From Azolla caroliniana (taxonomy: Eukaryota > Plantae > Polypodiophyta): a stretch of DNA of 64,000 bases. The position numbers and the translations under genes are program-made. This document shows positions 5,023 to 48,375 of this stretch, one piece after another; position 1 is the stretch's first letter, and each line of letters starts with the position of its first letter. The DNA lies in NCBI GenBank assembly GCA_043228905.1, contig JBHGNT010000018.1:7254001-7318000 (forward strand). The letters run 5' to 3'. The notes beneath the pieces are model-generated. The model did no database searches. It saw only the letters and a program-made list of their open reading frames with translations, and was not told the origin of the DNA.

Positions 5023-5783
5023 GATATAAAGAAGCCAGAGGAAAGGACTGGCTACTGCAAACACTGACACCACGATCTGACCTCAAGTTGAGCTTGAGGG
5101 GGAGTGTTGAGTGAGCAAGCTCAACCGGATCCGGATCGGCTGAATAAACTAGAGTCGGATTGGTATCTGGATTGGTTTCCAGATAATATCCGGAACCAAG
5201 GGCCGGATCGGACACCCGTATCGGATTGAAACCGGTAGGCCGTTAGAGGCCTACAGATCCAGCCTAGTACGTAGGCATATTTTTGGGAGTCAGTGATAGT
5301 CGGTCATATGAGCATTGAAGGACTTGTCAGTACTTCTGTCAGTCCTTTATGGACTTGTATAAAAGTGCTCTCTGAGCACATTCTATGTACACACAATATT
5401 GAGAGTATCATTTTAAATAGAGTTTTATGTTCTGCTCTCTCTCTCTCTCTCTCTCATGTGTATGCTTATTCTCTATGTTAAGCTTCCATTAAACCTTCTT
5501 CTCTTTATTGTTACTATCCGGAAGAGCCGGTTTGGCATAAGCTTCCGCACAGTAACCTTCACAAGTTCGTTATCCAATTGGTGATGTATTAATCTTGTTT
5601 CTCAAATCTAAAGACGAGGATTCAATCTTAATCTCCCTCTCTCTCCATCTCAATCTTTCTCTCGCCATATCAATCTCTCTCAATCTCTCTTAAATACTTT
5701 CTTGCTAAAGCTAGTATAAACTTCATATCCTTCCGGTCTAGGACCTTGACGGTTCCGTCTCACAATCCGCACGTAGTGACGGA
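5023..5783 (+). mobile_element. 3' tail, PPT (about 5093-5104) and 3' LTR (from 5105) of a plus-strand family-A Copia; the LTR probably ends at CTTTCA 15719-15724 beyond the G1 insertion
   Basis: GACCTCAAGTTGAGCTTGAGGGGGAG|TGTTGAGTGAGCAAGCTCAACCGG matches 37288-37335. Similarity to the other A LTRs is clear to about 5500. The distal boundary is inferred. Confidence 0.7.
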
Positions 5784-6219
5784 TGTTAACTCTTAGGGTC
5801 GGACAATGGCCTAACACAGGGTGTCTATGGAAGACACTTCACCAAAGGGGTGTTACGGCAATAGGATTAGACTCAACGATTAATCCGACTTAATTAGGCT
5901 ACTTAGCAAGATCGTCCTTAATAATCACACGCGTAAGATATAACACTGAATGCAGAACGACAATTAACACAGAGAGATAAAAAACACTAAGCTTTATTAA
6001 TTAACCGCTGCTCATTACATTGTATCCGGGCCTTTAAATAGGTTTCCGGTTTGTATTACAAAACGGTGTCATTCGCACCTGTTCGGGATCGGTCCGGATC
6101 CGGAACGGCATACCGATTCCGGTCCGTCCGTCCACACTAATAGCTTACTTACAACCATTCCTTAATAATTAAATAACTCCTTCGTTTCACACTCTGGACT
6201 CCTATGCCGGCCGGTAACA
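5784..6219 (-). repeat. 3' LTR of G1
   Basis: TGTTA...TAACA termini; about 10 mismatches (counted by eye) versus 15278-15713. Confidence 0.95.
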
Positions 6220-6261
6220 CATGCCACGCCCGTGGGACAGTACCTTGTACGCCGAATCCAC
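6220..6261 (-). other. tRNA-Arg 3'-half-like motif at the PPT position of G1
   Basis: Element sense reads GTGGATTCGGCGTACAAGGTACTGTCCCACGGGCGTGGCA-TG-LTR, with no purine run. Homologous to 29500-29541 and 15966-15995. Confidence 0.75.
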
Positions 6262-6274
6262 CATCCGACCCTTG

Positions 6275-9049: not shown

Positions 9050-9444
9050 GTCTGTGTCGAGGTCGGATTGTGGTGGCGAGGTTGGATGGTGATGAGAGTG
9101 AGAGTGAGAGAGTTCAGAAAGTGGGGGTTCTTTGTGCGTAGGTTCTCGTTTGATGATCTTCCAACGCCTTGGTGCTTCTGTGCTCTTGGGTTCGCGAAAG
9201 TAGAGGGTCTCCACGCGCAATGGTTTTTCTCTATGCATTCTGGTGTCTTTTTCGAGCGTGTGCACGTCGTGTACTAAAATAGCATTATGTCTTGTGGTGG
9301 CGCTTAAATGCCCACTACGTACCTTTTCGCTCCTCGCTCTCTCATCCATTCATACCTCGCTTTTGCATGATTACTTCGCTTTTTTCTTTTTCTTTTTTTG
9401 GATAAATTTTAATGTGGTGTGAGGTTAGTTGTCCGTTGGTCCTA

Positions 9445-15224: not shown

Positions 15225-15259
15225 CCATTCGTGCCCTCGTTCGCTGCAAAATTAGGAAT

Positions 15260-15270
15260 CGTGATCGCCA
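15260..15270 (-). promoter_or_regulatory. Primer-binding site of G1 (tRNA-Arg-like)
   Basis: TGGCGATCACG follows the 5' LTR after a CAGTTTT spacer and is complementary to a tRNA end ...CGTGATCG-CCA. The Arg(CCG/UCG) assignment is from memory. Confidence 0.7.
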
Positions 15271-15277
15271 AAAACTG

Positions 15278-15713
15278 TGTTAACTCTTAGGGTCGGACAA
15301 TGGCCTAACACAGGGTGTCTACGGAAGACACTTCACCAAAGGGGTGTTACGGCAATAGGATTAGACTCAACGATTAATCCGACTTAATTAGGCTACTTAG
15401 CAAGATCGTCCTTAATAATCACACGCGTAAGATATAACACTGAATGCAGAACGACAATTAACACAGAGAGATAAAAACCACTAAGCTTTATTAATTAACC
15501 GATGCTCATTACATTGTATCCGGGCCTTTAAATAGGTTTCCGGTTTGTATTACAAAACGGTGTCATCCGCACTTGTTCGGGATCGGTCCGGATCTGGAAC
15601 GGCATACCGATTTCGGTCGGTCCGTCCACACTAATAGCTTACTTACAACCATTCCTTAATAATTAAATAACTCCTTCGTTTCACACTCTGGACTCCTATG
15701 TCGGCCGGTAATA
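15278..15713 (-). repeat. 5' LTR of G1
   Basis: Near-identical to 5784-6219. The outer terminus is mutated (TA instead of TG on the element strand). Confidence 0.95.
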
Positions 15714-15724
15714 ACGGACTTTCA

Positions 15725-15996
15725 AGACAACGTTTAAGCGACAAGGAATCGGAAAAGATATGGCTGGCAGCTTTATGTGAATTAGAAGAGCACCGGATAG
15801 CCAGTGTGCTACAATTGGAACTAGAGCCGAAGAAGACGGGAATGCCGGAGATGGAAAGGACCAACGTGAGGAGAAACTAGAGTAGGAGCAACAAAGTGAG
15901 GAACCTCTCGAACCCCTTGACCAGAGTTTCTTGGACATACTTGATGAAGAGTAGTGGAGCTACCCATGGGTTCAACGTACAATGTACTGTCCCACA
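15725..15996 (+). pseudogene. Heavily deleted relic of a third G-family element (IN C-terminal piece, end of extra ORF, tRNA-like motif)
   Basis: RLSDKESEKIWLAALCELEEHRIASVLQLELE, then EPLEPLDQSFLDILDEE*, then ATGGGTTCAACGTACAATGTACTGTCCCAC. Confidence 0.75.
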
Positions 15997-18900
15997 ATGC
16001 CATACCAATATCCGAAGTATCGGGATGACCCGGACGTGAAGGCCCATGTATACGTGTTTCTCCAAATTTGGGAGGCGAATCATGTCTCCCAACGACTGAA
16101 CGATGCAGAGGTAGAATGATCAAAAATTGCGGAATTCGGCATGACTTTGGAGGGACCCGCGACACGTTGGCACTCCAAGCACCTTCCCGGCAACATCGCC
16201 ACGTTTGAGGATTTAAAGACTACATTTCTACGCTTCTTCGACAGACAGGTGGATCAAAGAGAGATTGTCGACCAATTTTATATGACACCACAGAACCCGT
16301 CCGAAACCATTCAGCAGTTCGTTATCCGGTTCCAAACGATGCATAATCAACTCACTAGAGCACCGCTAGAAGCTGAAGCGAAAGTGGTATTTTTGGCAAC
16401 ATTCCGGGAACCTCTCCGAACCATGTGTGTGGTCATAGATTTTCGGACCAGTAGAATAGACCAGGTAATTGATCGGGTCTGGAAATGGGCAAAACGAGTT
16501 TGTGGTTGACGATGGGAGCACTTCAAAGAACACTCCCCATCGAACAGGACCTACGCTTTCGCTAGGCGGTCCAATGCATGACGTGCCTTAACCCTGGGCA
16601 CTCAACAATAGAGTGCACGATGAGATCACAGTGCATGCTATGCCATTCTCGGTCACATACAATGGGCCGCTGCGAGTACAACCCGCTGAATCAACAAGCT
16701 GCACTAGTTCAGCACATCGAGACCCGGAATGACCAGGAGGACAAAGAAGAATGATTTCGGTGAGACGATTGCTACCGATAGGTACAAGACGTTCGATATA
16801 GTGACCGACGGGAAGATTATGACCAAGACCAGAGCGAGAGAAGCTGCGACTATAATGGCGATCGTTATAATCGAGATTACTCCCCCGGCTATGATCGGAG
16901 AAGAGAGGATCAATGGGAAGACTATGAAGACCGGCGCCGGCAAGGATCCCGGAACAACCGATGCTATAATAAAAAATGGAACGCTCGGAAAGAGGATCGT
17001 CGGGAACCGGCAAAGGATGACCAACGAGAGCTAGACAAAAGCATAACTAGTGCTCAAACGGAACAAAGAAGAGTAGAGGAGCTTAACCGGATAGTATCCG
17101 GATTTCAACCTGGTAACATGCAAAAAGCAGAGTCAAGCAATATACGGAAGGCGTATTGCTACTATTGCCACCAGGAGGGACACTATAGCAACCAATGTCC
17201 GGTAAAGAGTCATGACAAATGACTGGCAGTCAACATGGTGGTCACGGAAGGGGCGGACATCCAGCAAGTCACCACTAGATCGAAGGGAAAGATGGCTAAA
17301 TGGGAGGTTGAGGAAGCTATCCGCAAACAAACTACGTAGTGGATTGAAACGGCAAACGAACAGAATGTCACCGAATTGAAGGAGCAAAGGAACGCATTGG
17401 AGGAACCTACAGAGACGAGGCAGCAGGAAAACCCCACTTGGCGGGCATTACAGGAATGCCCGATCATGCTACGACTGGGTCGGTTACTGCAATTGGTGCC
17501 CCGATTCACCGATGGGTTTAAATCAGCATGGGTCCCACCAACCCCCACACCGGCTCCGACGTTCTTTTCGAATCCGGAGGAAGGGTCGGTAGTGGTTGAT
17601 ACCAGCAGTCCCGCAATCACCACCATTATCAAAGGACGGGAAGTACAGGGGACGATCATCGATGGCGGATTGGGAGTAAACGTAATTAGCCTACAAACAT
17701 GCAATACTCGTGGAATCCAACAATGGGAACCATGCCCGTTCTTGCTCCGGATGGCGGACACCAGCTTAGTACACCCGACCAAATTGATCCGGGATTTGGA
17801 GGTAACAATCGGAGGCCATGCTTTCCGGATTTCTGCGGTTGTCCTTCAGTTGAATGCGCAGGGAGCATACCCACTGTTGCTGGGACGACCATGGTTACAG
17901 ACCGCCAACATCAAACAGAAGTAGCAGAAGAACAACATTATGTTTCGAAGGGGGAAAACTAAGGTAAGAGTACCCATGCACCCTCAAGCGGGCCCAGGCA
18001 AGGAAGTAACACCGTTATCTACTGGAAGGGCTTGCCGATGAGGAGGTAGATCGCTACCTTGATGAAAACCCAGGGATAGTCACTCTATTCGAAGTAGACA
18101 TAGCAGAGGCAGTGTCCCCATATATTGGGAAATCGGAGGATGCTGGTGAGGAGCCGGATAGGGACACGATTTGGGAATTGCGACAAGCACAAGAGGCCCT
18201 AGAGCGAGAGATGGCAGTATCACAACGGGTGAAAGCATCACAGTTGGAAGAAGTGAATCTGGGAACCAACTAAGAAGCAAGACCGGTGCAAGTGGCCAAA
18301 GAAATGCCACGGGAGGAGAAATCAGCAATGATCACATTATTGAAAGAATTCCGGGACATATTTGCGTGGTCATATGAAGACATGCGGGGATTGGACCCGC
18401 AATTATATCAACACTAGATTCATTTAAGCAAGGATGCGACTCCGGTAGCGTAGAGATGTTACCGGATGAATCCGAATTATGCGGCTAAAGTAAAAGAAGA
18501 GATCGACAAGTTGCTGCGGGTTGGGTTCATCCGGCCGGTGAAGAAAGCCACCTAGCTAAGCCCGATCGTGGTGGTACCGAAGAAAAACGGAAAGATCTGG
18601 GTCTGTGTGGATTACCAGAAATTGAATGCTACCACTATCACTAATGCATTCTCATTCCCATTCACGGATGGAGTCTTGGATGCAGAAGTAGACCATGAGG
18701 TGTATAGCTTCCTCAATGGATTCAACGGGTATAACCAAATCAGGATGCACCCGGATGATCAGGAGAAAACAACGTTCGTCATTGAATGGGGAGTCTTTGT
18801 CGCAGTCGTGATGATCTTCGAACGGAAGACGGCACCGACAACGTTCCAACAAACCATCATGGAAATTTTTGGGGAATTTATCCTACCGTTTATGCACATG

Positions 18901-21170
18901 TTCTTGGATGATTTTGCGGTGTACAACAAGAAAGGAGAACATCTTGACCATCTCCGGTTATGCCTGGAGAAATGCAGAGGTTACTGGCTAAGTCTGAACC
19001 CGGCAAAATGCGTATTCGGGGTAACCAACGACACGTTACTAGGCCATATTGTGACTAAGGACGGGATTGCGGTGGACCCGGATAAAGTTAAAGCCATTTT
19101 GGACGCACCGACACCAACATCTGCCAAAGCTCTGAGCCATTTTTTAGGGAAAATCCGGTGGCATAGCCGAATGCTCCGATACTTGGCCGATCTTGCGACA
19201 CCACTACACACAACTGTACACCAGACACCTTTCCAATGGACACAACCGGAGGATAAGGCATACCATGCGCTCAAAATAATGTTTTCCCACGCACCGGTCA
19301 TACAACCCCCGGATTGGTCGAAGGAATTTCATGTGATCGTGGACGCATTTGATATCGTGATTGGCAACGTTCTTATGCAGCTCACCAAATCAAAGTGGTA
19401 CCGGCTGGTTTACTACGTTAGTCGAAAGCTCTCCCAAGCGGAACAGAAGTATTCAACAACGGAAAGGGAAGCCTTGGGAATGATATATAACGTAAAGAAG
19501 TTCCGTCACTATTTGCTGGGATGAAAATTCTCATTCCACGTAGATCATTCGGCTTTACTTTACTTGGTTTCCAAGGCATCTCTAACTGGCAAACTAGCAC
19601 GATGGATGTTGCTTCTATAGGAGTTCGAATTCGAGATTTACCACAGACCGGGAGTACAACATGTGGTTGTGGATTACTTGAGCCGGTTAGAATCCGGAGA
19701 GGCAGGCGACGGTGTCAAAGATGACCTTCTGGATGTGCAGTTGTTCAGGGTAACAACGAAGAATACGATGGACGAGACAATGGCCGAGGAAGACAAATGG
19801 CTGACGAATATGCATCATTTTTTAAGCACCGGATTACCTCCGAAAGAACTGAACCGGGACGAACGGAAGCGGTTGGCGGTACAAAGCCGACATTTTTGTT
19901 TACTACAGGATACGTTGTACCACAAGGGAGCGGACGGTATATGGCAAAGAGCTGTTCGGAGTGATGAGAAGGAGATCATTTTACGGGAAGTTGATTGTGG
20001 AGTCGCTGGAGGACATTATGCCGGAGAAGCAATTGCAAAGAAGATATGGCGAAGCGGATTGTGGTGACCTACAAAAATGAAGGAATCAATTCGGTATACA
20101 AAGGAATGCGACTTATGTCAACAGATCGGCCAACCAACGGAACAAGCAAGAATGCCACACTAGCCGGTGTTACCATTGGAGCCATTTCAAAAATGGGGAT
20201 TGGACTTTGTCGGATTGTTCAAACCTCAGGCAAGGCAGACCGGGAACTAGTATATCATTGTAGCAACAGACTACTGCACCAAATGGGTGGAAGCAAAGGC
20301 ACTCTGGGATAATACCGCGACGTTAACGGCCAAGTTCCTATATGAGTGCATTTGGTGCCGGTATGGATGCCCGATAGAACTGATCAGTGATCAAGGAGGA
20401 CATTTCCTCGGTCAAGTAGTAGAGAGCTTGATGACGTTTTATGCGGTCGTACACAAGCAGAGTACACCTTATTATCCACAAGCCAACGGATTGGCCGAAT
20501 CCACCAACAAAACCTTGCCAAACATCCTCCGGAAAATAGTCAATGAAAACCACACTGATTGGGACACGAAGCTGCAGAGTGCGTTGTGGGCTTACCGAAC
20601 CACATAGAAAACAAGTATTCAGACAACACCATTCCATTTAGCTTTCGGATTAGAAGCGGTCATGCCGAGAGAATTTCAAATTCCGAGTTTGCGGATTCAA
20701 GTACGGGAAAGGTTAAGTGAGAAGGAATCGGAGAAAATTTGACTAGCGACATTGTGCGAATTAGAAGAACACCGGATAGCTAGCATTCTGCGGTTGGAAC
20801 TCAAGCAAAGACGATAGAAAGCGTTCGTCGACCAGCACCGGAAGGGAACGAGAAAATGTTCAGAATCAGCAAGTCAGTGTTAGTATTTCAGACCCAGATG
20901 GGCAAAATGCTAGGCAAGCTACAGTTCCGGTGGACAGAATGGTACTGGATAACATGAGAGTTTAACGACTTGTATTAGCTAGGTACGCTGGCCGGCGAGG
21001 TTGTGGAAAAATGGGTAAACGGTTTCCGACTAAAACCGTATTACGGACCAATGTTGCAAACATGTTTAAACAACCAGATGCTGACGCAGAAACCGGGAAC
21101 GGCAGGCGGATAACCAGTAACAAGGAGGAGGAACATACAACGGATCCGGTGTTGCCGGATACAAGGGTTT
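15997..21170 (+). pseudogene. gag-pol of G2 with many stops
   Basis: PR IIDGGLGVN, RT 18568-19524 (VDYQKLN, FLDDF), RH YSTTEREAL, IN ISDQGGHF and YPQANGLAE. Confidence 0.9.
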
Positions 21171-21571
21171 AGAATACCATGCACAAAAAATAGAAAAAGA
21201 AAAAGAAAACCGTCATGTAGGGGCGAGGAGTAAACACGTGAAGTAAAGCCACCATGCAAGTGAAAAAAAAATTAAAAAAATGAATGTAGGCCATTAAAAA
21301 ATGAACGGATACCTCGAAACAGTGTGACATAAGTCATTTAAAGCCACCACACGTCAGACAGCCACTATTAAAAGCACACGACGTGCGTGCGCGGGACTCG
21401 AGAAAAGGCGGCAAGAATGGGAACACAAAACCTTCGCATAACGAAGTCTCTCTCAGATACATAGCACTTAGCACACAAAGACAGATACAGGTGATTAGGC
21501 GAACGCCAGAAGCTACCACAGACACACCAAAGCTCTCCACCAACACCAAAACAGAGGACACATTGGAGCCC

Positions 21572-23398
21572 ATGGCGCTTTCCGAGATGGCCAATAAATG
21601 GTTCACGCAACATGGCTTGGAGGGCTTCCTACGGATAGCAGAGGCACCTCCGCACGAAGAAGCGGAAAAGGTCACGAAGAAGATCGACCTAGAAGTAATC
21701 ACGAAGGAGGCCATCCGCCCCTTAATCGGATTGCCAGAAGGAGGGATCTACTCCATTGAGAATCCTTCCCCAGAGACGGTGACGAAGTTCTTTGGGGAGT
21801 ATTCCCTGGCCAGCAAAACGTACCGGACACAGGGCGGCGACGACGCCTTGTTCCAAGAAGTAGCTCGTGTGCTCCACAAGTATGGGTTTGTGCACCCTCG
21901 ACCCCTGGCAATGCCAAAGAACAAAGTTGGATTCATCATCGCCACATACGAAGTGGAAAAGGTGGATTGGCCCGTAATCATCATTGATTGTTTGCGAGCG
22001 GCCATACAATTGGTGGTAGACGGCAAGAAATGGCTCAATGGCTCACTCTCCTGGTACCGCCGGTGCTGACAGAGGCACCGATAGAGCAACCGGTTAGACC
22101 TCTTAAAATCAAATTGCGTGGGCAAGAGCAAGAGCCGCCTAACTTGGCTCAAGGGATAAACATGAGAACCCAAGAGGAGGAGGCAGAGGAAGAACCCGCC
22201 GACACTCCCCTACGTCGCCGGAAGAGAAGTAACGCAAAGTAGAAGGGGGATGAATCGGGACCAGTAAAAGACAACACACCGACACCCTACTCCAAGGAAC
22301 TAGAGCCAACGAAAGAAACGGAGCCTGATCGGCCAGTAACGGCAAGGGAAGTACCAATCTCAGTGGGTCGACAAGCACAACAAGAAAAGGAGTTGCCGCT
22401 AGAAATAACAATCCAACTAGGGGTTGTGGCGAAAGCAAAGCCAACACCACAACCAGAACTGGCAAGGCAACATGGCACCGACAGTCAATGGCTGCGATGG
22501 ATCGGAGAACAGGTTGCCGGGGTTGTAAGCCAAATGGAAGCAGAAGAGAGAGCACAACGGGATTGGTTGTTCGCCACAACCGAAGAACTTGAGAAGGCCC
22601 GGTCAAGGATTCGGAGCATGGAGGAGGAAATTGAGAAGGCCAAAGCAGACACGGCCAGACAGGTCAGTCAGGGGCCGACAGGACCAAAATCGGTGGCATC
22701 GATGATTGAGTAGACAGATAACACGCCTGTAGCTCCTACAACACCAAACACAAGCATTACACAGGAGCAAGAACTCTGCACTCTCAGGGAAGAGTTAGAA
22801 GCCCAAGGGGCTGTGAGGGCTAGAGAACGAGAGCAGAAGAAGGTAGTGAAGGAGGAGAAATGAAGACTTGAAGAAAATCTCCGGAAAAGTTGCCAATTAA
22901 ATGACCGGTTGAAGGAAGAAAAGGAGAAGCTGCTACAAAAGAAGGATAAGCTTCGGCGATCGGTGGAAACCGAAATGGAGTGGCTCAAAGAAGAACTCTA
23001 ACAGCAGAAAGACTGGGAAGACCGCGCCCGACGCCAAATAAACCAAAAGTTGAAGTAGAAGACGGAGGATTTTGAACGACTGCACCGGGATCAGAAGTAT
23101 TTCGATGCGGAGCACAAGAAGTTGATGGCAGAAGGTGACCGACTGTAGGAGAAGCTAGGGGAACTCCTGAAGGATGTCAATAGGGCAACGAAGGCATTGG
23201 CAGAAGAACGAACCAAGGCGGTCGACATGGCAAAGGCATTGGAAGAAGCGACAAGGGATCGGATGGAGCTCACCCGACAACATTATGTGGAGACGGAACG
23301 AGCAAAGATGGCACTGAATAGAGTTTAGACCACTTATCAAACTAAATTCCTGGAATATGAGATGCAGGCACAGGAATCTGCGGGTCTGATAAAGAAGT
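21572..23398 (+). pseudogene. Extra ORF of G2, N-terminal part
   Basis: MALSEMANKWFTQHGLEGF...GLPEGG...FFGEYSLASK...KVDWPVII and SQWLRWIGEQVA align with the G1 extra ORF. Confidence 0.8.
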
Positions 23399-24005
23399 TG
23401 TTGGGAATCAACGCTTCGATTCACCTTCTTCCCTCGGCCACAAGCGAGTAATCGCGGATCAATGCAGCAGAAAATAGGAAATACAGAGAAAGACACGATA
23501 CACAGGGATTAACGTGGAAAACCCTATACGGGAAAAACCACGGGAGTGCGAAACTCCAAACCAAACTATGCACAGAGAAATATACAATGGCGAGCTGCAA
23601 GGCAACGACCTTGAGCTCGCTGTCCTCGCCACAGGCGGCGGAAATACACAGAGGCGTCTACCTCTTCCTCTCTCGCGCTCTATCTCTCACTCTGTCTCAC
23701 GGCTGCTCCCTCTTCACTCCTCTTGAGTGGAAAAACAGAAAAATGAGAAGCAACAGAAAAACTGTTTGCCCTAAGTCATATTTATACTTATATGACTTTG
23801 GGCTATTTACAACTATAGCCTCAGGGGGCTCGTAGCGAACATATTCACGGATATGTCCCTGCATCCGGATCGCTCTCCGGGTACATTCGTCATCCGGCAC
23901 CGAAGCCGGGGTCTTCGTCATCCGGATCCGAAACCGAAACCGGGCTTGTCGGCATTCATCTCCGATATCCGACCATCCCATCCGAAAGGGACCGAAATCC
24001 CAACA
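23399..24005 (-). repeat. 3' LTR of Copia T
   Basis: TGTTGGGA...TCCCAACA terminal inverted repeat. Confidence 0.96.
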
Positions 24006-24018
24006 AACTCCCCCTTCA
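24006..24018 (-). promoter_or_regulatory. PPT of Copia T
   Basis: TGAAGGGGGAGTT abuts the LTR and overlaps the stop codon. Confidence 0.92.
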
Positions 24019-27000
24019 CTTCGGCATGGGATGTCTTTCCAATCCGATCCTCTTCCGGCATGCTTCCAGCTTGTCGGGTGTGAGCACCTTGGTCAGCATA
24101 TCCGACCCGTTCTCGTCGGTGTGGATCTTCGTCAGCACGAACTCCTTGTCTTCTATCCTTTCCCGGATCCAGTGATATCTTCGCTGGATGTGCTTCGTCC
24201 GGGAGTGATAGGCTGCGTTCTTCGCAAGGTGGATGGCACTCTGACTGTCGCAGTAGAGTCGGTACTCCTCCTGCCGGATACCGAGCTCTCTAATGAAGTC
24301 CTTCATCCATATTATTTCCTTGCCGGCTTCAACAGCTGCCATGTACTCCGCCTCCGTGGTTGACAACGCAACCGTCTTCTGCAGCCTCGACTGCCACGAA
24401 ACAGCTCCCCCTGCATACGTCATCACATACCCTGATGTGGACCGGCTGGTATCTGCATCAGCCGACATATCCGAATCGGTGAAGCCGTCGAGTTCGGGCT
24501 TACCGGAGCCGAATCGGAGGCACACGTTTGCCGTGCCCTTCAGGTATCGGAGTATCCACTTGACCGCGTTCCAGTGCTCTTTGCCGGGATTGCTCATGTA
24601 CCGGCTCACCACTCCGACTGCATATCCTATGTCCGGTCTCGTACACACCATGGCGTACATCAAGCTCCCGACTGCTGAGGCATACGGCACTTTCATCATA
24701 TCCTCCTTTTCAGCCTTTGTCTTGGGACTTTGCTTGCTGGACAGCTTGCAGTTTGTCGGGAGGGTCGATCCGACCGGTCTTGCTTCCGACATGTTGAACC
24801 GTTGAAGCACCTTTGTCACGTACTTCTCCTGTGACAGCCACAACTGCTTCTTCTTCCGGTCCCGGATGATGTGCATCCCTAGTATTTGCCTCGCCGGACC
24901 CAGGTCCTTCATTGAGAAGGTTCGGTGAAGAGCCTTCTTCAGCATCCGTATCTTGACCTGGTCCCGTCCGACGATCAACATGTCGTCCACGTACAGGAGG
25001 AGTATTAGGAAGTCTCCTCCTTCAAACTTCTTCACAAACACGCAGTGGTCGGACTGCGTTTTGAGGTACCCTTCGTCGGTCATGAAGGAGTCGAACTTCC
25101 GGTACCATTGCCGGGGAGCCTGCTTCAGTCCGTAAAGGCTCTTCTTCAATCGGCATACCAGGTGCTCCTTCCCTTTCTTCTCGAATCCTTCCGGTTGCTG
25201 CATGTAGATCTCTTCATCGAGGTCACCGTGAAGGAATGCCGTCTTCACGTCCATCTGTTCTACCTCGAGGTCCATGCTTGCCGCTATGCTCAGCACCGTC
25301 CGGATGGAGGTCATCTTCACTACCGGGGCAAATATCTCGTCGAAGTCGACGCCCTTCTTCTGCTGAAACCCCTTCACCACGATCCTGGCTTTGTATCTCG
25401 GGGGGTTTCCGGCATCTCCCGGTTTCAGCTTGAACACCCACTTGTTTCGCAGTGCCCGCTTTCCTTTCGGCAACTCCACAAGTTCATATGTGTGGTTCTC
25501 ATGCAGGGAATCCATCTCGTCCTGCATGGCACTCAACCACCTGCGGCTCTGGGTGTCATGCTTTGCTTCTTCAAAGCTCTCCGGCTCCCCCTCGTCGGTT
25601 AGCAACACGTGCTCTGGTTCCGGAAATCTCCGGGGGGCTCTCCTCTCTCTTAGAGGATATCTCCGTTCGGGAGCTTCGGTAACCGGTTCTTCCGATTCTT
25701 CTTCTTCATCCGAATCCATTTCGGGATCGGGGCCGGTTCCGGTATCATTTTCATCTTCTTCGGCCGGTTCTGTTTCTTCACCGTCTTCGGCCGGATCCTC
25801 GAGTGTTAACCGGTCCCTTGCCGGTCGGGACTGCTCCTCGTAGAGTTGATCCTCACCGATCGACTTGGAGCTCTTCATCTTCTTCTCCGACTCCCAGTCG
25901 GCGAGTGTCTTGTCCTCCATGAAGATGATGTCTCGACTCCTGAATATCTTCTTGTCGACCGGGTCCCATACTCGGTAGCCGAACTCGTCGTCGCCGTAAC
26001 CGAGGAATATGCATGGCCGGGTCTTAGGATCTAGCTTTCCTCTCCGGTCCTTTGCCACATGCACGTATGCGAGACACCCGAACACCTTCAGATGCCGGTA
26101 GGACACTTCCTTACCGGTCCACACTCTCTGCGGCGTGTCTCCGTCCAAAGGAACTGAGGGTGATCTGTTTATCACATATGTCGCCGTCGACATTGCCTCA
26201 GCCCAAAACCCCTTGGGTAATTTCGCATGCGCCAGCATACTTCGGACCCGCTCCATTATGGTCCGGTTCATCCTCTCGGCCAGCCCGTTCAGTTCCGGCG
26301 TCTTCGGCACAGTAAACTCGAGCCGGATTCCCTTCGAGCGACAGTACTCCTGGAACTGCCCCCGGTATTCCCCTCCGTTATCCGCTCGTATCGCTTTCAG
26401 CTTCTTGCCGGATTCCCTTTCCACTCTCGCGTGGAGTTCTTTGAAGACGGACAACACTTGGTCCTTTGTCTTCAACGGTGCCGTCCACAGCTTCCGGCTG
26501 TGATCATCAATGAATGTCACGAAGTACTGGGCTCCGCCATGTGACTTCGTCTCTACCTGACACACGTCAGTGTGCACCAACTCCAATGGTGCGCTACGTC
26601 TCGTCGGTGGCCTTGAGTGGAAGGAGGTTCGGTTCTGCTTACCGGCCAGGCAATCGGTGCACTTCTCCAGGTGCACGTGCTTCACTGGGATGAGGTTGTC
26701 TTCTGCAAGCCTCTTCATCCCCTTCTCACTCATGTGGCACAGTCTTTTGTGCCACAGCTCACCGGCAGTGTCGGCTGCCACATTCAGCTCTTCCGGACAT
26801 AACCGGGCATTCATCAGGTACAGTGTGTTGACCTTCCGGGCCCGAACCACTATCAAGCTCCCCTTGCTGAACTTCATGACACCGTTCCGGATGCTACCCG
26901 TGTAGCCTTCATCATCTAGCCTCCCGGCCGAAATCAGGTTCAATCGGACCTCCGGAACGTGTCGGACATCTTTCAGCAGCATTTTGCATCCGGTCGGGGT

Positions 27001-28092
27001 TGTCAACCACACGTCTCCTATGCCGGCAATCCGGCACGTACCTTCATTTCCCATCCGAACACAGCCATGCTCGCCGGCTGTGTAGGATGAGAAGTATCTT
27101 CTCTCCGGGGTCAGGTGGAACGATGCTCCGGAATCGACCACCCAGGTCGTCTCATCGCCGGCAACGTTTAGCTCACCTTCTTCGGTGATGAGCATGATTT
27201 CTTCCTCACTTGCCGCGAGTGCCGTTGTTCCTTTCCGGTCTTGCCCTCGCCGATCCGAACCTCTCCGGTCCGTGGCTCCCCGGTATGCACCGTTTCTCTC
27301 CGGTGACTTCTTCGAGTCGGTGTCGTCGGCTCCGTTGTCTTTTCGGTAATGCCGACAATTCTTTCGGAAGTGCCCCGGCTTCCCACAGTGGAAGCATGTG
27401 GGCCTTCCTCTTGACTGCGACCGGGTCCCCGACTTCTCCCGTCTTTGCGGACTCCGGTTCCATTGTCTTCCCCGATCCGATTCGGTAAACAGCATCTTCG
27501 GGTCGGAGGCCGGTTCCTTATCTCTCCGACGCGCTTCTTCATTCAGAATACTTGTCTTTACAGTTTGTAAGGACAAGTTATCTTCGGTGCACGAGGTGCT
27601 GAGAGTCACCACCAAGTTCTCCCAGCTTTCCGGCAATGTACACATCAGGATGATGGCTTGCATTGCATCCTCCAACGGGAACTTGATCGCCGCAAGCTGG
27701 TTCACGAATCCCATGAACGTGCTTACGTGTTCCACCATACTCTCGCCGTCCCGATACTTGAGATTCACAATCTTCCTCATCAGGGAGGTCCGGTTCAACG
27801 CATTCTTCCTCTCATAGAGGCCAGACAGCTTCTTCCACATCTCGTATGCGTTGGTGTCGTTCGCCACATGTTGCAGGACGCTTACGTCGACATATTGTCG
27901 GATCGTCGCTACGGCTTTCCGGTTCAGGAGCTTCCACTCCGACTCAAGTACCCCCTTCGGTATTTCCGACCTGTCAATCGGTTCGTACAGGTCCCGAACA
28001 ATCAGAAGATCCTCCATCTTGATCTTCCAGTCGGCGTAATTCTGTGCATTCAGCACCATCATCATCGGCTGCCCGCTGCCGCCGCCTTCCAT
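24016..28092 (-). CDS. Copia Gag-Pol polyprotein, 1358 aa
   Basis: ATG at 28092 (MEGGGSGQ), just downstream of the PBS. Motifs CFHCGKPGHFRKNC, WVVDSGAS, WHKRLCH..CTDC, VHTDVC, ADNGGEY, MDVKTAFLHG, LLYVDDML, FTDSD, RTKHI. Confidence 0.96.
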   Translation of the reverse strand: MEGGGSGQPMMMVLNAQNYADWKIKMEDLLIVRDLYEPIDRSEIPKGVLESEWKLLNRKAVATIRQYVDVSVLQHVANDTNAYEMWKKLSGLYERKNALNRTSLMRKIVNLKYRDGESMVEHVSTFMGFVNQLAAIKFPLEDAMQAIILMCTLPESWENLVVTLSTSCTEDNLSLQTVKTSILNEEARRRDKEPASDPKMLFTESDRGRQWNRSPQRREKSGTRSQSRGRPTCFHCGKPGHFRKNCRHYRKDNGADDTDSKKSPERNGAYRGATDRRGSDRRGQDRKGTTALAASEEEIMLITEEGELNVAGDETTWVVDSGASFHLTPERRYFSSYTAGEHGCVRMGNEGTCRIAGIGDVWLTTPTGCKMLLKDVRHVPEVRLNLISAGRLDDEGYTGSIRNGVMKFSKGSLIVVRARKVNTLYLMNARLCPEELNVAADTAGELWHKRLCHMSEKGMKRLAEDNLIPVKHVHLEKCTDCLAGKQNRTSFHSRPPTRRSAPLELVHTDVCQVETKSHGGAQYFVTFIDDHSRKLWTAPLKTKDQVLSVFKELHARVERESGKKLKAIRADNGGEYRGQFQEYCRSKGIRLEFTVPKTPELNGLAERMNRTIMERVRSMLAHAKLPKGFWAEAMSTATYVINRSPSVPLDGDTPQRVWTGKEVSYRHLKVFGCLAYVHVAKDRRGKLDPKTRPCIFLGYGDDEFGYRVWDPVDKKIFRSRDIIFMEDKTLADWESEKKMKSSKSIGEDQLYEEQSRPARDRLTLEDPAEDGEETEPAEEDENDTGTGPDPEMDSDEEEESEEPVTEAPERRYPLRERRAPRRFPEPEHVLLTDEGEPESFEEAKHDTQSRRWLSAMQDEMDSLHENHTYELVELPKGKRALRNKWVFKLKPGDAGNPPRYKARIVVKGFQQKKGVDFDEIFAPVVKMTSIRTVLSIAASMDLEVEQMDVKTAFLHGDLDEEIYMQQPEGFEKKGKEHLVCRLKKSLYGLKQAPRQWYRKFDSFMTDEGYLKTQSDHCVFVKKFEGGDFLILLLYVDDMLIVGRDQVKIRMLKKALHRTFSMKDLGPARQILGMHIIRDRKKKQLWLSQEKYVTKVLQRFNMSEARPVGSTLPTNCKLSSKQSPKTKAEKEDMMKVPYASAVGSLMYAMVCTRPDIGYAVGVVSRYMSNPGKEHWNAVKWILRYLKGTANVCLRFGSGKPELDGFTDSDMSADADTSRSTSGYVMTYAGGAVSWQSRLQKTVALSTTEAEYMAAVEAGKEIIWMKDFIRELGIRQEEYRLYCDSQSAIHLAKNAAYHSRTKHIQRRYHWIRERIEDKEFVLTKIHTDENGSDMLTKVLTPDKLEACRKRIGLERHPMPK

Positions 28093-28106
28093 TTTCTGCA
28101 ACAGTC

Positions 28107-28118
28107 GCTCTGATACCA
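28107..28118 (-). promoter_or_regulatory. PBS (tRNA-iMet) of Copia T
   Basis: TGGTATCAGAGC, 3 nt after the 5' LTR. Confidence 0.95.
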
Positions 28119-28121
28119 GTT

Positions 28122-28728
28122 TGTTGGGAATCAACGCTTCGATTCACCTTCTTCCCTCGGCCACAAGCGAGTAATCGCGGATCAATGCAGCAGAAAATAG
28201 GAAATACAGAGAAAGACACGATACACAGGGATTAACGTGGAAAACCCTATACGGGAAAAACCACGGGAGTGCGAAACTCCAAACCAAACTATGCACAGAG
28301 AAATATACAATGGCGAGCTGCAAGGCAACGACCTTGAGCTCGCTGTCCTCGCCACAGGCGGCGGAAATACACAGAGGCGTCTACCTCTTCCTCACTCGCG
28401 CTCTATCTCTCACTCTGTCTCACGGCTGCTCCCTCTTCACTCCTCTTGAGTGGAAAAACAGAAAAATGAGAAGCAACAGAAAAACTGTTTGCCCTAAGTC
28501 ATATTTATACTTATATGACTTTGGGCTATTTACAACTATAGCCTCAGGGGGCTCGTAGCGAACATATTCACGGATATGTCCCTGCATCCGGATCGCTCTC
28601 CGGGTACATTCGTCATCCGGCACCGAAGCCGGGGTCTTCGTCATCCGGATCCGAAACCGAAACCGGGCTTGTCGGCATTCATCTCCGATATCCGACCATC
28701 CCATCCGAAAGGGACCGAAATCCCAACA
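28122..28728 (-). repeat. 5' LTR of Copia T
   Basis: Near-identical to 23399-24005. Confidence 0.96.
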
Positions 28729-28733
28729 GAAGT

Positions 28734-29488
28734 TAAAGGACAAAAAGCAGGCTGCGGAGGACAAATCCAAGATGGGGCTCGGCCGGATCCACGCCATTGT
28801 GCTGGGATGGAAAGAACGAACAAAGAGTATGATTGGTGAAAGCTCAGTGCAATGGTGGTCAAAATGGGCACAACAGGTGGCGGAATTACAGACGCTGCGA
28901 GTGGGATGTGGAAAACCGGAGAAAGGACGGTGACAACTTCTACAAGATGGATGCAGAGAGGATTGTAACCATCTGGGAGGAGTTGTCGAACGATTTCTTG
29001 TCCCTGGCAGGGAACAAATAGCAGTTGTAAGGCAACTAGTAGAACAACTAGATGATGACCAACTTGGCACTCAACTCCAGCTCGAGCGATACGAATGGGA
29101 GCGAAGACAGTAGATAGCATCACAAATGTAGGCGGCAATTAACATCAGTGATGGAGAGCAATCTTTAGAGCAACCACCAAATGTAGCCGGGAACGGTGAA
29201 GGCCAGCCAAACGAAGCCCGAGTGGAACAGCCGGAAGAAGTCAAACCAAAGGAGGTAGACAAAGCCCCAGTGCAGCACTAGGAGGAGCAAAGAACGAAGG
29301 AGTCGAAGCCAGAAGCGCCGGTACTAGTAGAGTTAGATACGAACAGAGTCGGAGAGCAGGCCGAAGACCAACAACAACAACAGCAACTACAACCGGAGGA
29401 GCAATAGCAGAAGCCGATGGAGCAACTACCCAATAAACCATTGGAACCCCTGGACCAGAGCATTCTGGACATTTTGGAGGATGAATGA
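28734..29488 (+). pseudogene. Extra ORF of G2, C-terminal part
   Basis: Resumes after TSD GAAGT with KSKMGLGRI...WWSKWAQQVA and ends PLEPLDQSILDILEDE*. Confidence 0.8.
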
Positions 29489-29497
29489 AGGGGGTAA

Positions 29498-29541
29498 CTG
29501 TGGGTTCGACGTACAATTTATTGTCCCACGGGCGTGCCATG
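29498..29541 (+). other. tRNA-Arg(UCU) 3'-half-like motif ending in CCA, at the PPT position of G2
   Basis: CTGTGGGTTCGA-cgtacaatttatt-GTCCCACGGGCGTGCCA-tg-TGTTGG(LTR). Confidence 0.8.
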
Positions 29542-29980
29542 TGTTGGCCGGTTAGGCCAGAGTATGAAAGGGGAATCGGTTTTGGGAGTTGTAATTAGAT
29601 AAATTATGATAAATATAAATTCAGACAGACGGACGTGGAATCGGTATGCCGATCCGGATCTGGACCAGTTCGTAGCCGGTTGCCGGTTGGCACTATTTTG
29701 TAGCACAACCAGATACCTATAAAAGGATCCGGAGATGATGTAATGGATGATGGATAATTAATAGAGAAGTGTTGTATCTTTACATATTGTGTATCTTGTT
29801 AATACCGTTCTGTGCTTAATGTGATTAACATAGGCGTGTATCAAGTTAATCATTCCGGAGAGTGACCGGGAAGGATCGGTCCTCTATCACGGTTTGCACA
29901 TTCCTTACCGTACCACCCCTTTGGTGAAGTGTTCTAAAGGGACACCTTGTGTTAGCGGCTTGTCCAGCCCGGTGACAACA
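29542..29980 (+). repeat. 3' LTR of G2
   Basis: TGTTG...CAACA, 439 bp. Shares CCCTTTGGTGAAGTGT...GACACC.TGTGTTAG with the G1 LTR. Confidence 0.88.
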
Positions 29981-41458: not shown

Positions 41459-42079
41459 TGTCGTGAAGAAAACCGGCCATAGGCGGAATCCGAGAGAAAG
41501 CGTGTAAACCGGCCCCTACACGGATGGACGCGTGACTGGATACTTTGTACACGAACCAGTGGATGTGACTACTAGGCCGCGCGCATTTATTAAGGGGGGA
41601 TTATGCGTATCCCGGTCAGAGGGGAGGGGGACAAGGAATAAAGAAAAGAGGAGAAAGGAAAACAGGCATCGCGCGCGAGGAGGAGGGGAAGCATTGCGGC
41701 AAAACGGAAGGCGGAGCTCTCTCTTTGACTCGGATCGTCGCTCTCTGCGGGTGTCGGGATGTCGCTGCCTCTGCTTCGTGGACAGCCTGTGTGCTTCTAG
41801 CAGAGTTGCTCCCTTTCCCCTTTTGTTTCTTTGAGTCGTGCGACTGTCGTCGGTGTGCGTGAGTAGGGTCCCCGTGTCGGGTCCGTCACCGCTTTGTCGG
41901 TTGTAACTGTCGGAGTTTGTAATCTCTTGCCATTATAATTAAGTGTTACGTTCTATATCTCTCTTTCTCGCTCCTACGTGTCGGTGAATCTCTCTCTCAG
42001 TCTCTCTCTCTCTCGCTCCTCGGTCCAAGACCCCCGTGGTCTCGCCCCTTTCTACACGTACACGCGTAACAACGCGACA
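41459..42079 (+). repeat. 5' LTR of C
   Basis: 621 bp, highly similar to 47756-48375. Confidence 0.94.
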
Positions 42080-42123
42080 TCTTTGTTGAACCCGACATGA
42101 AAGGGCGGCAAAGGAGTCGAAAG

Positions 42124-45100
42124 ATGAGGGGATCGGAGCTAGCAGATGCAATGGCGGTGGCCGTCGACCGGCTGGTGAGCGCTTGTGAGGGAACGGGTAC
42201 CCTCGACAGAGCCATTGAATCGATCGTCGGCTCTATAGGCCGTTTCGGAGGGAAAGACGCCACAAGTTATTTGGAGGCTTACCGGGCCGAAATGATCATG
42301 AGGGATATCCCGGTGGACAGGCGACTGTCCAGATTCCCTCGGGTGGTGACGCCGGGCATCCATGCGGAGGTGCTCGAGGTGTTGGCCGGATGCTAGACTT
42401 GGGAGGAGTTCGAACTGCAGCTCCTCGAGAAGTACGGGTTTGACGACTTGCTCCGGCTATCGAGGCGGGACTTCATGGCGTGGGTGGAAAGCCCCGGAAA
42501 AGGGAGGAACACGTCGGTGCTCCTCTAGGAGTTCGAAAAACGGTTCGCACGGCTCTCAACGCTGGACCGGACGGTGCTCGAAACGAGTCGAGTGTTGTTG
42601 TTTGTCAAGTCGATGGATGCGCTCGACAGGAAAAAGGTGGGTCCCCTACTGGAACCGGACGAAGGGCTCATGACGGATTGGGCCGTTTCGACAAACGGCG
42701 CGATTGGAGCGATGGAAGCACGTCGGGGTCGGGGCCGGTCCCGGGGAGGAGGCTCGAGGAGCCGATTTCGGTTCCGGCTGGGAGGAAGGAAGAGACCCGA
42801 ATCTGGCCGGAGTCGGGGTCGGCATCGAGCGACGTGATCAAAGGCCCATCTGGAGGAGCGGCTCTGGAGGAGCTAACACAGATGGTGCGCGACCTACAGA
42901 TCGCACAGGCCCGGAGAGATGGCGGTGAACAACCTCGCGACCGGAGGCCGCTGGCTGGGCAGCGGTGCATGTGGTGTGACACGATCGGTCACATTCGGAA
43001 GGATTGCGCGGATTTCGCCGACGCGCTCAGGACCAACGTGGTGTACCTCTGGAACGGGCGGGTGCACACGAGCGAGACCCGGAGAGCCCTAGAACTGAAT
43101 ATGGGGCGCGGCGGAATGAAGAGGTTGATGGGAGAGGCTGTGGCACGGCACGTCGAAGCCGTCAACTACTCGGTGTCGGCGGGAATTCGGGTTAGGGGTG
43201 ATGAGACCCGGAAGGCGAAGGACTCCGGATTCTGGCCGCTAGTGCTAGAAGGCCTCTTCGGAGTTCGGCTGAGGAAGGAAGAGGCGGACCGCGCAGAACA
43301 GCGGGTCCAGGAGGTCACCGGTTGGGACGATCCGGTCGAAGAGAAAACGGGCTTCGTAGAAGCCGCTTGCCAGAACTATGAGGTTCTGGTGGAGGACAAA
43401 CGAGCAGGAAAGGCCGGAGGGGTTGGCCCCCCGAGTTATGAGACCCAGTTCGGACTGAGACTGACCGATGCCGGCAACCTAGGCGTGCTGGATGGGAAGA
43501 AGCAGGCGAGGTTTCAGTTGAGCACCGAAATCGAGAGAGGAACGGACCTACAGAAGGTCCTTGAAGAGCAAATCCTCGACAGTAAAGTAGAGTTGTCGTT
43601 GCGGGAGGTGTTGGGAATCGCCAAGAGGGAGTTCCACGACTCTATCGTAGACTTGGTGAAGCGGAAGAGGCTCTCGACGGAGCCGGAACCGGAGAATCCG
43701 GTGGAAGTGCGGACCACGCACCTGGAAAATGGAGCCCTGGAAGATGAGCTGGCGGGAAGCCACTACACGAAGCCGCATTGGGCCAGGGCGACTACAGAAA
43801 CCCCTGTACGGATCGGCAACGTTCTGGAACCGGTGGTGGCGTTGGTAGACCATGGATCCGAAATCAACCCGATGTCCATGAATTTCTACAAGAAGGGTAA
43901 ATGGCCGATCAACACCAAGCATGGCTAGAAGATACGGGTAGCGACGCGCACCACGGAAGAACTACATGGGGCCTGTCCGAACGTACGGGTGAAAATCGGC
44001 GATGTCGAGATCGACCAACACTTCTTCGTGCAGGAGACGTCCTCGCATCTGGTTATACTAGGAGAGCCATATATCACGGCGGCACGGATGGAGACCAAGG
44101 TGCTGGACAACGGTTCAGCCTATGCAAGAGTCAAGAGCCAAGACGGGCGTCACTCGGTCCAGTTCCTAACGGTGCGACCAAACCACGAGCGTAACCGCAA
44201 GGACCTCGGCAGCGAAACCCGAGGGGATTTTTAGAGAAGGTTGTCAAGGCGTGGGGCCACGATAGTCTGGACACCCGGGAAGAACCCCACAAATGTACAG
44301 TACGAAAGAAGACCTGTACCATAGGTAGGAAATTTTGGTTCTCCGACAGCGGAGGTTGTACTATAACCAGCGGCAGCGGCAGGGAGAGGAAGCGAGCGGA
44401 GGAGCGGCTCAGGGGATGCGGAGTCCTCTTCCCCGACGAGGACATCAGCGGCGCCATGGAGGTGGTCTCTTTCGACGACACCTTGGGCGAACTACGAAAG
44501 GTGATCGGTGAAGACCTTAGGGAAGACTGGACTGTTCTAGTAGGGTCGATGGGAATGTAAGAAGTCATCGTAGACTTCGGGGAAAGGATCGGGTTGGATC
44601 GGACGGCCCGCGTGGATACGAAATACAAGACTGTGGACCGGAAGGTGAGGCCAGTCGCGGCACCCTTGCCGGAGGGCAGTGAGGGGCGGATAAAAGGGGT
44701 CGCATTGGACCCAAGTTTACGAAATCCGGCTGGCATAGGGCACCAGTTCACCGACATAACGCTACAGGAGCTCAAGGTCGGTGGGGGCGGCTTTCTATTG
44801 CCGGCGGAGGAGGACCAGTTTCGGATAATGCTCGGGAGGCACGGGAAGGCTTTCGCATTATCACCGGAGGAGATCGGGTGCGTAGACCCGACAATTGTCG
44901 AACCGATGGTGATCTTCACGGTACCGCATATACCATGGAATCTCAAGCCGATTCCGGTGTCGAGAGCTCACATCCCGAAGTTGATGGAGCTCCTAAAGAA
45001 AAAGGTGGAGATGAGCATCCTCGAACCGTCGAGTGCCCCGTATTCGAATCGGTGGTTTACGGTGCCGAAGAAGAACGGCATGCTGCGCTTCATCCAGGAC

Positions 45101-47686: not shown

Positions 47687-47755
47687 GGCCGGGTTTCTTC
47701 GATATCTACCCGTCTCTGGCGCATACCGGTGGATGCGCGGTTTGGTGGAGGTGGA

Positions 47756-48375
47756 TGTCGTGAAGAAAACCGGCCATAGGCGGAATCGGAGAGAAAGCGC
47801 GTAAACCGGCCCCTACACGGATGGACGCGTGATTGGATACTTTGTACACAAACTGGTGGATGTGACTACTAGGCCGCGCACATTTATCAAGGGGGGATTG
47901 TGCGTATCCTGGTTAGAGGGGGGGGGACAAGGAATAAAGAAAAGAGGAGAAAGGAAAACAGGCATCGCGCGCGAGGAGGAGGGGAAGCATTGCGGCAGAA
48001 CGTAAGGCAGAGCTCTCTCTTCGACTCGGATCGTCGCTCTTTGCGGGTGTCGGGAGGTCGTTGCCTCTACTTCGTGGACAGCCCGTGTGCTTCCTGTAGA
48101 GTCGCTCCCTTTCCCCTTTTGTTTCTTTGAGTCATGCGACTGTCGTCGGTGTGCGTGACGAGGGTCCCCGTGTCGGGTCCATCGCCGCTTTGTCGGTTGT
48201 AACTGTCGGAGTTTGTAATCTCTTGCCATTATAATTAAGTGTTACGTTCTATATCTCTCTTTCTCGCTTCTACGTGTCGGTGAATCTCTCTCTCAGTCTC
48301 TCTCTCCCTCGCTCCTCGGTCCAAGACCCCCGTGGTCCCGCCCCTTTCTACACGTACGCGCGTAACAATGCGACA
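47756..48375 (+). repeat. 3' LTR of C
   Basis: Preceded by GGTGGAGGTGGA (PPT-like, 47744-47755). Confidence 0.94.

What the first reader, a model, noticed from the sequence alone, without database searches (positions are those of the whole stretch)
29498..29541. Gypsy family with a tRNA-Arg 3'-end look-alike (second, inverted PBS) instead of a polypurine tract
Seen: immediately 5' of the G2 3' LTR there is no purine run. The sequence is CTGTGGGTTCGA-(13 nt)-GTCCCACGGGCGTGCCA-tg-LTR, which on the other strand reads LTR-ca-TGGCACGCCCGTGGGAC, a PBS-shaped site pointing inward. The motif recurs in G1 (6220-6261, CCA changed to GCA) and in the relic at 15966-15995, although the G1 and G2 LTRs are well diverged. 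G1 also has a normal 5' PBS (TGGCGATCACG). Knowledge, from memory: plant tRNA-Arg(UCU) ends ...TGTGGGTTCGAGTCCCAC(C/T)GGGCGTG-CCA, so the match covers the T-arm, acceptor strand and CCA, with a 1-nt gap and a loop insertion. LTR elements normally prime plus-strand DNA from an RNase H-resistant PPT. Inference: this family primes both strands with tRNA-Arg isoacceptors, or uses an element-encoded tRNA mimic as the plus-strand primer. I recall a two-PBS arrangement for the nematode BEL/Pao element Tas but know of none in plant Gypsy lineages; I cannot verify novelty here.
Basis: partly seen in the sequence, partly recalled or inferred. Interest (0 to 1): 0.8.

Follow-up and report, generated by a model that had tools for sequence, protein, structure and literature searches.

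The report
tRNA replaces retrotransposon's polypurine-tract primer
A large group of plant jumping genes has no purine tract where the second DNA strand normally starts; it carries there a split, mirror-image binding site for an arginine tRNA, and rare faulty insertions keep an exact copy of that tRNA at the element's left end, so a host tRNA likely starts the second strand as well as the first.

Summary
Confirmed and strengthened. Before the G2 3' LTR lies a copy of host tRNA-Arg(UCU) positions 48-76, lacking one C, split between A58 and G59 by a 13-nt covarying hairpin, then CCA-TG-LTR; no purine tract abuts the LTR. The site occurs 2,173 times in this genome, across many LTR subfamilies, and in four public runs with four organism labels. 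The 5' PBS is mostly tRNA-Arg(UCG). Key evidence: of 71 exact tRNA 18-mer+CCA sites, 9 (6 events) sit at LTR left ends in the same register; in two whole elements the 5' LTR carries the exact tRNA copy (18 or 57 nt) while the 3' LTR keeps the element-type motif. These are the fossils expected if tRNA-Arg(UCU) primes the plus strand and is occasionally not removed. Against exclusivity: 8 of 11 motif-LTR-PBS loci carry 100-360 nt of the element's own 3' end, and one LTR follows a motif cut within itself. No biochemical test was possible. The scan noted this motif before in seven other windows of this genome; the fossil junctions were not in the snippets seen. No paper found in nine searches; the Tas precedent is recalled only.

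The parts
29498..29509 (+). Match to tRNA-Arg T-arm 5' strand and T-loop (positions 48-58; first base mismatched)
   Evidence: mean 8.5 of 10 matches in 86 copies against 4.1-4.5 in upstream control windows
29510..29522 (+). 13-nt insert between tRNA A58 and G59; small hairpin in the family, decayed in this copy
   Evidence: two central pairs Watson-Crick in 161 of 182 cells, shuffles 106 +/- 5, max 123; GTAC/GTAC, GTGC/GCAC and GGG/CCC types (relatedness not controlled)
29523..29539 (+). Copy of tRNA-Arg(UCU) positions 59-76 with CCA, lacking one C; on the minus-strand DNA an inverted primer-binding site
29540..29541 (+). 2-nt spacer TG, absent at the left end of normal insertions (inferred removed by integrase 3' processing)
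   Evidence: 5' LTRs start directly after a 5-bp TSD
29542..29980 (+). G2 3' LTR (TG...CA)
29476..29494 (+). Purine-rich last codons of the extra ORF, 47 nt from the LTR, poorly conserved; not a canonical PPT
   Evidence: (commonest-base share at most 0.64 in columns -60 to -43)
15993..29491 (+). G2 internal region (gag-pol, extra 3' ORF), decayed, its 5' LTR lost by deletion, interrupted by a Copia element at 23398-28728
15966..15995 (+). Relic motif cut after the first 7 nt of the 17-mer and joined to G2 gag by a 3-nt microhomology
5784..6219 (-). G1 3' LTR
6220..6261 (-). G1 copy of spacer, 17-mer (one private change), hairpin and T-arm match
15258..15270 (-). G1 5' PBS (tRNA-Arg UCG type with one mismatch, or Arg CCG over 11 nt), 7 nt after the LTR
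15278..15713 (-). G1 5' LTR, 97.9% identical to the 3' LTR; 5-bp TSD at 15714-15718 and 5779-5783

Best explanation
These Ty3/gypsy elements lack a polypurine tract and carry before the 3' LTR a split copy of the tRNA-Arg(UCU) 3' end, and a host tRNA-Arg(UCU) likely anneals to its complement on the minus-strand DNA and primes the plus strand. Shown: the site, its conservation, its hairpin, the matching host tRNA, the separate Arg(UCG) 5' PBS, 5-bp TSDs without the spacer, and exact tRNA copies joined in register to LTR left ends. Inferred: after RNase H clears the RNA, tRNA positions 59-76 pair with the 17-nt site (one C bulged) and positions 48-58 pair beyond the extruded hairpin; RT extends through the spacer and LTR; RNase H normally removes the tRNA and integrase trims the spacer; when removal fails the minus strand copies the tRNA up to A58 or further, which is what the fossil junctions record.
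For: (1) 2,173 element-type sites, control 0; 30 of 30 first-listed loci are element 3' ends followed by an LTR; 37 LTR-start clusters among 86 copies. (2) T-arm match conserved although not in the search pattern, flanks not. (3) Predicted duplex with Arg(UCU) -45.5 kcal/mol on average against -29.7 and -31.4 for Arg(UCG) and Arg(CCG), RNA parameters as proxy. (4) C2 element: 57-nt tRNA copy (54 nt 100% identical to gene L009, plus non-encoded CCA) + TG + 5' LTR + Arg(UCG) PBS + gag-pol, while its own 3' LTR follows the element-type motif. (5) C20 element: exactly 18 nt (G59-A76) + TG + 5' LTR + Arg(UCG) PBS, the stop expected at m1A58 (PMC13191261, passages). (6) Four more left-end events, with the family's own spacer where it could be checked (L098, L309), L305 and L344. 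(7) Internal control: the undisputed minus primers leave the same kind of copies at right ends (L143, L144, L146; 21 sites oriented by BLAST). (8) A58 read as T or G in 5 of 18 read-through copies against 0 of 10 tRNA genes, one of them left-end copy L305 (suggestive only, small numbers).
Against: No cDNA end or primer was observed directly. 8 of 11 loci with motif-LTR-PBS carry about 100-360 nt of element-type 3' end before the 5' LTR (two confirmed as whole elements with their own 3' end duplicated), so plus strands can likely also start upstream, or these are broken tandems. L374 has the element-type motif cut about 40 nt from an LTR start (1 of 30 loci). Exact tRNA copies could arise by the minus strand switching onto a packaged tRNA; for L344 the minus primer is itself Arg(UCU) and L098 and L309 are rearranged solo LTRs, so only C2, C20 and L305 are clean. 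Substitutions in the T-arm match show no preference for wobble-preserving changes. m1A58 should hinder pairing at 58.
Confidence: 0.8

Rival explanations
1. The element's own RNA ending at CCA survives RNase H because of its hairpins and serves as a structured PPT substitute; the tRNA likeness is ancestral or helps RT recognition, and exact tRNA copies come from occasional template switches onto packaged tRNA.
For: Covarying hairpin; T-like stem predicted in cis in 33 of 86 copies; one LTR preceded by a motif cut within itself (L374).
Against: No acceptor stem in cis (5 of 86; partner hexamer 1 of 86); 0 of 11 motif-LTR-PBS loci are cut within the motif; it does not explain why Arg(UCU) is present and copied in elements whose minus primer is Arg(UCG) (C2, C20, L305), nor the lasting match to the T-loop.
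Confidence: 0.11
2. Plus strands start at heterogeneous RNA remnants upstream (including the purine-rich ORF end) and the tRNA site only fixes or trims the left end, or pairs with the 5' PBS to hold the RNA ends together.
For: 8 of 11 motif-LTR-PBS loci with 100-360 nt extensions at differing breakpoints; purine share 0.65 at -60 to -45; in sister families with an Arg(UCU) 5' PBS the two sites are complementary and form inversion chimeras (7 sites).
Against: Normal insertions start exactly at TG after a 5-bp TSD (14 of 15 pairs with at most one mismatch), which needs a fixed start; the purine stretch is not conserved; in the main family the two sites are not complementary; tRNA copies are joined exactly at CCA-spacer.
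Confidence: 0.06
3. A tRNA fragment was captured once next to the LTR and is carried along without function.
For: tRNA copies do get captured at cDNA ends in this genome (71 sites).
Against: The match and the hairpin are kept, with compensatory changes, across families whose LTRs and flanks no longer align, and in other organisms' contigs; no other primer site is visible.
Confidence: 0.02

Closest known systems
Canonical LTR-element priming: tRNA at the PBS, PPT before the 3' LTR (Ty3, HIV-1, Arabidopsis elements; PMC5371799, PMC13191261, PMC7197481, passages read)
   Same: tRNA-primed minus strand, LTR bounds, 18-nt stop at m1A58 with minor read-through products, spacer trimmed on integration
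   Different: No PPT; an inverted tRNA site stands at the PPT position
Ty1 bipartite PBS (PMC5371799, passages)
   Same: Two tRNA-pairing segments separated by a small internal loop
   Different: Here the bipartite site lies on the minus-strand DNA before the 3' LTR and is predicted to prime the plus strand
Tas of Ascaris (BEL/Pao; Felder et al. 1994, PMID 7525414: not held, recalled only)
   Same: Recalled as proposing tRNA-Arg priming of both strands from sequence
   Different: Other superfamily and kingdom; could not be checked; the ICTV Belpaoviridae profile (PMC8742986, whole text) lists a PPT for the family and names no exception
Plant non-chromovirus Ty3/gypsy, Athila side of OTA (PMC6317226, passages and supplement MOESM5)
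   Same: gag-PR-RT-RH-INT, no aRH, no chromodomain, 5-bp TSD, about 10 kb, extra 3' ORF
   Different: PBS is tRNA-Arg rather than mainly tRNA-Asp; no PPT; RT placement not tested against labelled references
tRNA-independent variants: Tf1 self-priming, copia half-tRNA (PMC5371799, PMC10085805, passages)
   Same: Show that primer rules can be rewritten in a lineage
   Different: They change the minus-strand primer and keep a PPT

Membership tests
Ty3/gypsy (Metaviridae-type) LTR retrotransposon | LTRs TG...CA with TSD | tested here: met
   G1 TSD; 14 of 15 LTR pairs with 5-bp TSD at 0-1 mismatch
Ty3/gypsy (Metaviridae-type) LTR retrotransposon | Domain order gag-(PR)-RT-RH-INT | tested here: met
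   Pfam on one unaltered copy: gag, zinc knuckle, RVT_1, RT_RNaseH, Integrase_H2C2, rve in that order; protease seen only as a motif by eye
Ty3/gypsy (Metaviridae-type) LTR retrotransposon | PPT before the 3' LTR | tested here: not met
Tat (OTA) | Additional archaeal-type RNase H | tested here: not met
   no second RNase H family at E<=0.1 on the 1,952-aa frame
Chromovirus | Chromodomain, mostly tRNA-Met or self-priming | tested here: not met
   no chromodomain hit; Arg PBS
Phygy / Selgy | 4-bp TSD; tRNA-Trp or tRNA-Ala PBS; no extra ORF | tested here: not met
   5-bp TSD, Arg PBS, extra ORF
Athila (OTA) | 5-bp TSD, no extra Pol domain, extra 3' ORF | tested here: met
   extra ORF has only lead-level likeness to PF03078 ATHILA and PF20167 clusters (scores 0.86-0.87), no Pfam hit
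Athila (OTA) | PBS mainly tRNA-Asp/Asn/Ala | tested here: not met
   tRNA-Arg(UCG) or (UCU)
Athila (OTA) | RT/RH/INT phylogenetic clade | not testable with these tools
   REXdb protein file not readable; nearest named RT-RH hits are unlabelled liverwort proteins at 40-43%
Element-encoded folded tRNA mimic | Acceptor stem formed in cis | tested here: not met
   5 of 86 by predicted pairing, 1 of 86 by partner hexamer; ARAGORN finds no tRNA in the window

The most novel reading that the evidence does not exclude
A whole clade of plant Ty3/gypsy elements replicates with two host tRNAs and no PPT: tRNA-Arg(UCU) is loaded on single-stranded minus DNA through a strand exchange with a DNA hairpin junction and primes the plus strand, with genomic fossils giving the first physical trace of tRNA-primed plus-strand synthesis in any LTR element.
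Probability: 0.72. Interest if true: 0.9.

Novelty: new variant of a known kind. Interest (0 to 1): 0.83.

Why it matters
PPT priming of the plus strand is treated as general for retroviruses and LTR retrotransposons. A successful, high-copy lineage without it would show that RT can start on a tRNA:DNA hybrid and that RNase H can define both cDNA ends by tRNA removal. It predicts co-packaging of two tRNAs, a second target for tRNA fragments, and mis-annotation by PPT-dependent LTR finders. The fossil junctions make the claim testable from genomes alone and give exact substrates for an in vitro assay.

Tried and rejected
Rejected: the motif as the ordinary 5' PBS of an opposite-facing element (G1 has direct LTRs, TSD, gag-pol polarity and its own 5' PBS). 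Rejected as left-end fossils: L008, L055, L097, which share the CCA-TG-TGT shape but were read as LTR right ends from orientation cues and likeness to aligned right ends. First guess of the Arg(UCG) gene pattern found nothing; a looser one did. Wobble-bias test: 63 transitions over 8 G/T sites against 21 over 2 C/A sites, no support. 5' LTRs of G2-type copies: found for 1 of 7 within about 20 kb, right ends not cleanly resolved; 3' ends found for 3 of 8 extended loci. No match in viral contigs. No RNA holder listed; contigs cannot show molecule ends. 41 of 121 metagenome loci were not used (flanks fetched for 80 only). 40 of the 71 exact-tRNA sites had no informative match in my LTR library and were not oriented by alignment. 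Papers not held: PMID 7525414 (Tas), PMC311226, PMC11337404. Nine literature searches listed no paper whose title or abstract start describes tRNA-primed plus strands; PMC3118150, PMC554778 and PMC4580426 (passages) say nothing on Tas priming. Neumann 2019 supplements MOESM1 and MOESM3 were unreadable and may bear on lineage placement. No RT tree was built.

Full report
Observation. The sequence is as described. At 29498-29541 the G2 element reads T-arm match, 13-nt insert, 17-mer ending in CCA, TG, then the LTR at 29542-29980. The gapped pattern has 1 match in the window and none in 100 shuffles. G1 (5784-15713, minus strand) is a whole element with 97.9% identical LTRs, a 5-bp TSD, a 5' PBS and the same motif before its 3' LTR, which excludes reading the motif as the normal PBS of an opposite-facing element. 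The relic at 15966-15995 is cut after 7 nt of the 17-mer and joined to G2 gag. Two Copia elements in the window have ordinary PPTs.

Host tRNAs. The genome holds tRNA-Arg(TCT) genes without encoded CCA. The motif equals positions 59-76 of the mature tRNA minus one C, and positions 48-58 beyond the insert; the insert falls between A58 and G59. That A58 is m1A and stops RT after 18 nt is established for retroviral primers (PMC13191261, passages). The 5' PBS of the main family is a 13-nt match to tRNA-Arg(TCG) (22 of 30 counted PBSs exact). Some sister families use Arg(UCU) at the 5' PBS.

Family. The element-type site occurs 2,173 times (reversed-pattern control 0). The first 30 loci are all element 3' ends followed by an LTR; 30 BLAST-selected G2-type copies agree. 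80 metagenome loci show further families, and contigs of four runs under four organism labels cover the motif most deeply. In columns not fixed by the pattern, the T-arm match is conserved (8.5 of 10 against 4.1-4.5 in controls) while upstream columns are not. The insert is a 4-bp hairpin with three stem types; its two central pairs are Watson-Crick in 161 of 182 cells against 106 +/- 5 in shuffles, a control that ignores relatedness. Of 36 motif loci tested, 15 had a 5' LTR within about 10 kb; 14 of these 15 have a 5-bp TSD with at most one mismatch, and none keeps the TG spacer at the left end. Domains are gag, RT, RNase H, integrase with no second RNase H or chromodomain, followed by an extra ORF: non-chromovirus, Athila-like in build but with an Arg PBS (PMC6317226 passages and MOESM5). 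The host appears to be a land plant; it was not identified.

Fossils of the primer. If a tRNA primes the plus strand and is not removed, the minus strand copies it, leaving exact tRNA sequence, CCA and spacer before a 5' LTR (inference from the standard cycle). A search for the exact 18-mer plus CCA gave 71 sites, all examined. Nine sites, six events, abut an LTR left end. C2: a 57-nt copy, TG, 5' LTR, Arg(UCG) PBS, gag-pol, element-type motif, 3' LTR; LTRs 99.5% identical, no TSD seen, locally triplicated. C20: exactly 18 nt, TG, 5' LTR, Arg(UCG) PBS, preceded by a partial LTR joined at a 2-nt microhomology, with a near-TSD. L305: 56 nt with A58 read as T, then an LTR with an Arg(UCG)-type PBS. 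L098 and L309: 18 nt with the 5-nt spacer proper to that family. L344: a two-LTR junction array. One further site (L351) joins the 18-mer to internal gag-pol behind an LTR right end, read as a mis-primed plus strand (inference). 21 sites are right ends by BLAST orientation, 40 were not oriented. The undisputed minus primer Arg(UCG) leaves like copies at right ends (3 of 6 hits), which validates the reading of such junctions. The exact copies have the C that 2,173 element sites lack, carry CCA, and stop at 18 nt or further in, so they derive from mature tRNA rather than from element RNA or tRNA genes.

Evidence against. Of 11 loci with motif, LTR and 5' PBS in a row, 1 is tRNA-type, 2 are long tandems, and 8 match element 3' end over only about 100-360 nt; for some the limit may reflect my reference set, two were confirmed against their own 3' ends. 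These suggest upstream starts from RNA remnants or broken tandems; none is cut within the motif. L374 is one case cut within the motif. A switch of the minus strand onto a packaged tRNA could also give exact copies. The wobble test was uninformative.

Mechanism. Best reading (0.8): tRNA-Arg(UCU) anneals to the minus-strand DNA over 17 plus up to 11 base pairs with the hairpin extruded (predicted co-fold), primes through the spacer, is removed by RNase H, and the spacer is trimmed at integration. Shown are the anatomy, conservation and junctions; inferred are annealing, priming and removal. Rivals are an element RNA stub primer (0.11), upstream priming with another role for the site (0.06) and neutral capture (0.02).

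Known systems and novelty. Canonical elements use a PPT (PMC5371799, PMC7197481, PMC10085805, passages); Ty1 has a bipartite PBS with an internal loop but for the minus strand. The Tas proposal of two tRNA-primed strands is recalled, the paper was not held, and the ICTV profile read in full names no exception. Nine searches found no description in plants. I class it as a new variant of a known kind: an ordinary gypsy machine with a different second-strand primer. Seven unreviewed notes of this scan report the same motif in other windows of this genome, and one reports a single fungal element; they are not independent support.

Noticed in passing
L307, L308, L314, L326, L330, L336, L343 (G000): Inversion chimeras: element 3' tail, T-arm match and hairpin joined through an exact tRNA 18-mer to an LTR right end in reverse, as if plus-strand strong-stop DNA paired with the 3' motif instead of the PBS when both sites use Arg(UCU). 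May explain why the largest family uses two different isoacceptors.
   Followed up: partly
L305, L322, L342, L346, L350: Genomic tRNA copies with A58 read as T or G, a likely fossil of m1A misincorporation by the element's RT.
   Followed up: partly
L294, L316, L341: Near-full-length (70-76 nt) CCA-bearing tRNA-Arg copies attached to LTR ends: retro-made tRNA pseudogenes that ARAGORN can call as genes (L013).
   Followed up: no
L087 / L123, G000:C1 about 13.13 Mb: Short (about 3 kb) element with Arg(UCU) sites at both ends, one base from the 5' LTR and inverted before the 3' LTR; probably non-autonomous.
   Followed up: partly
window 41459-48375: Another gypsy element (621-bp LTRs) with neither a TGG PBS nor a clear PPT at its inner LTR edges; possible self-priming type.
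   Followed up: no
window 6275-9349 (minus) and 21305-29491: Extra 3' ORF of over 800 aa in sense orientation, no Pfam hit, weak lead to ATHILA/Transposase_32 clusters, ending in a conserved acidic tail just before the motif.
   Followed up: partly
L010-L012, L018, L021: Clusters of degenerate, CpG-depleted tRNA-Arg(TCT) gene copies.
   Followed up: no
L146 (G000:C597): Two family LTRs joined head to head through an Arg(UCG) primer copy (fold-back junction).
   Followed up: no
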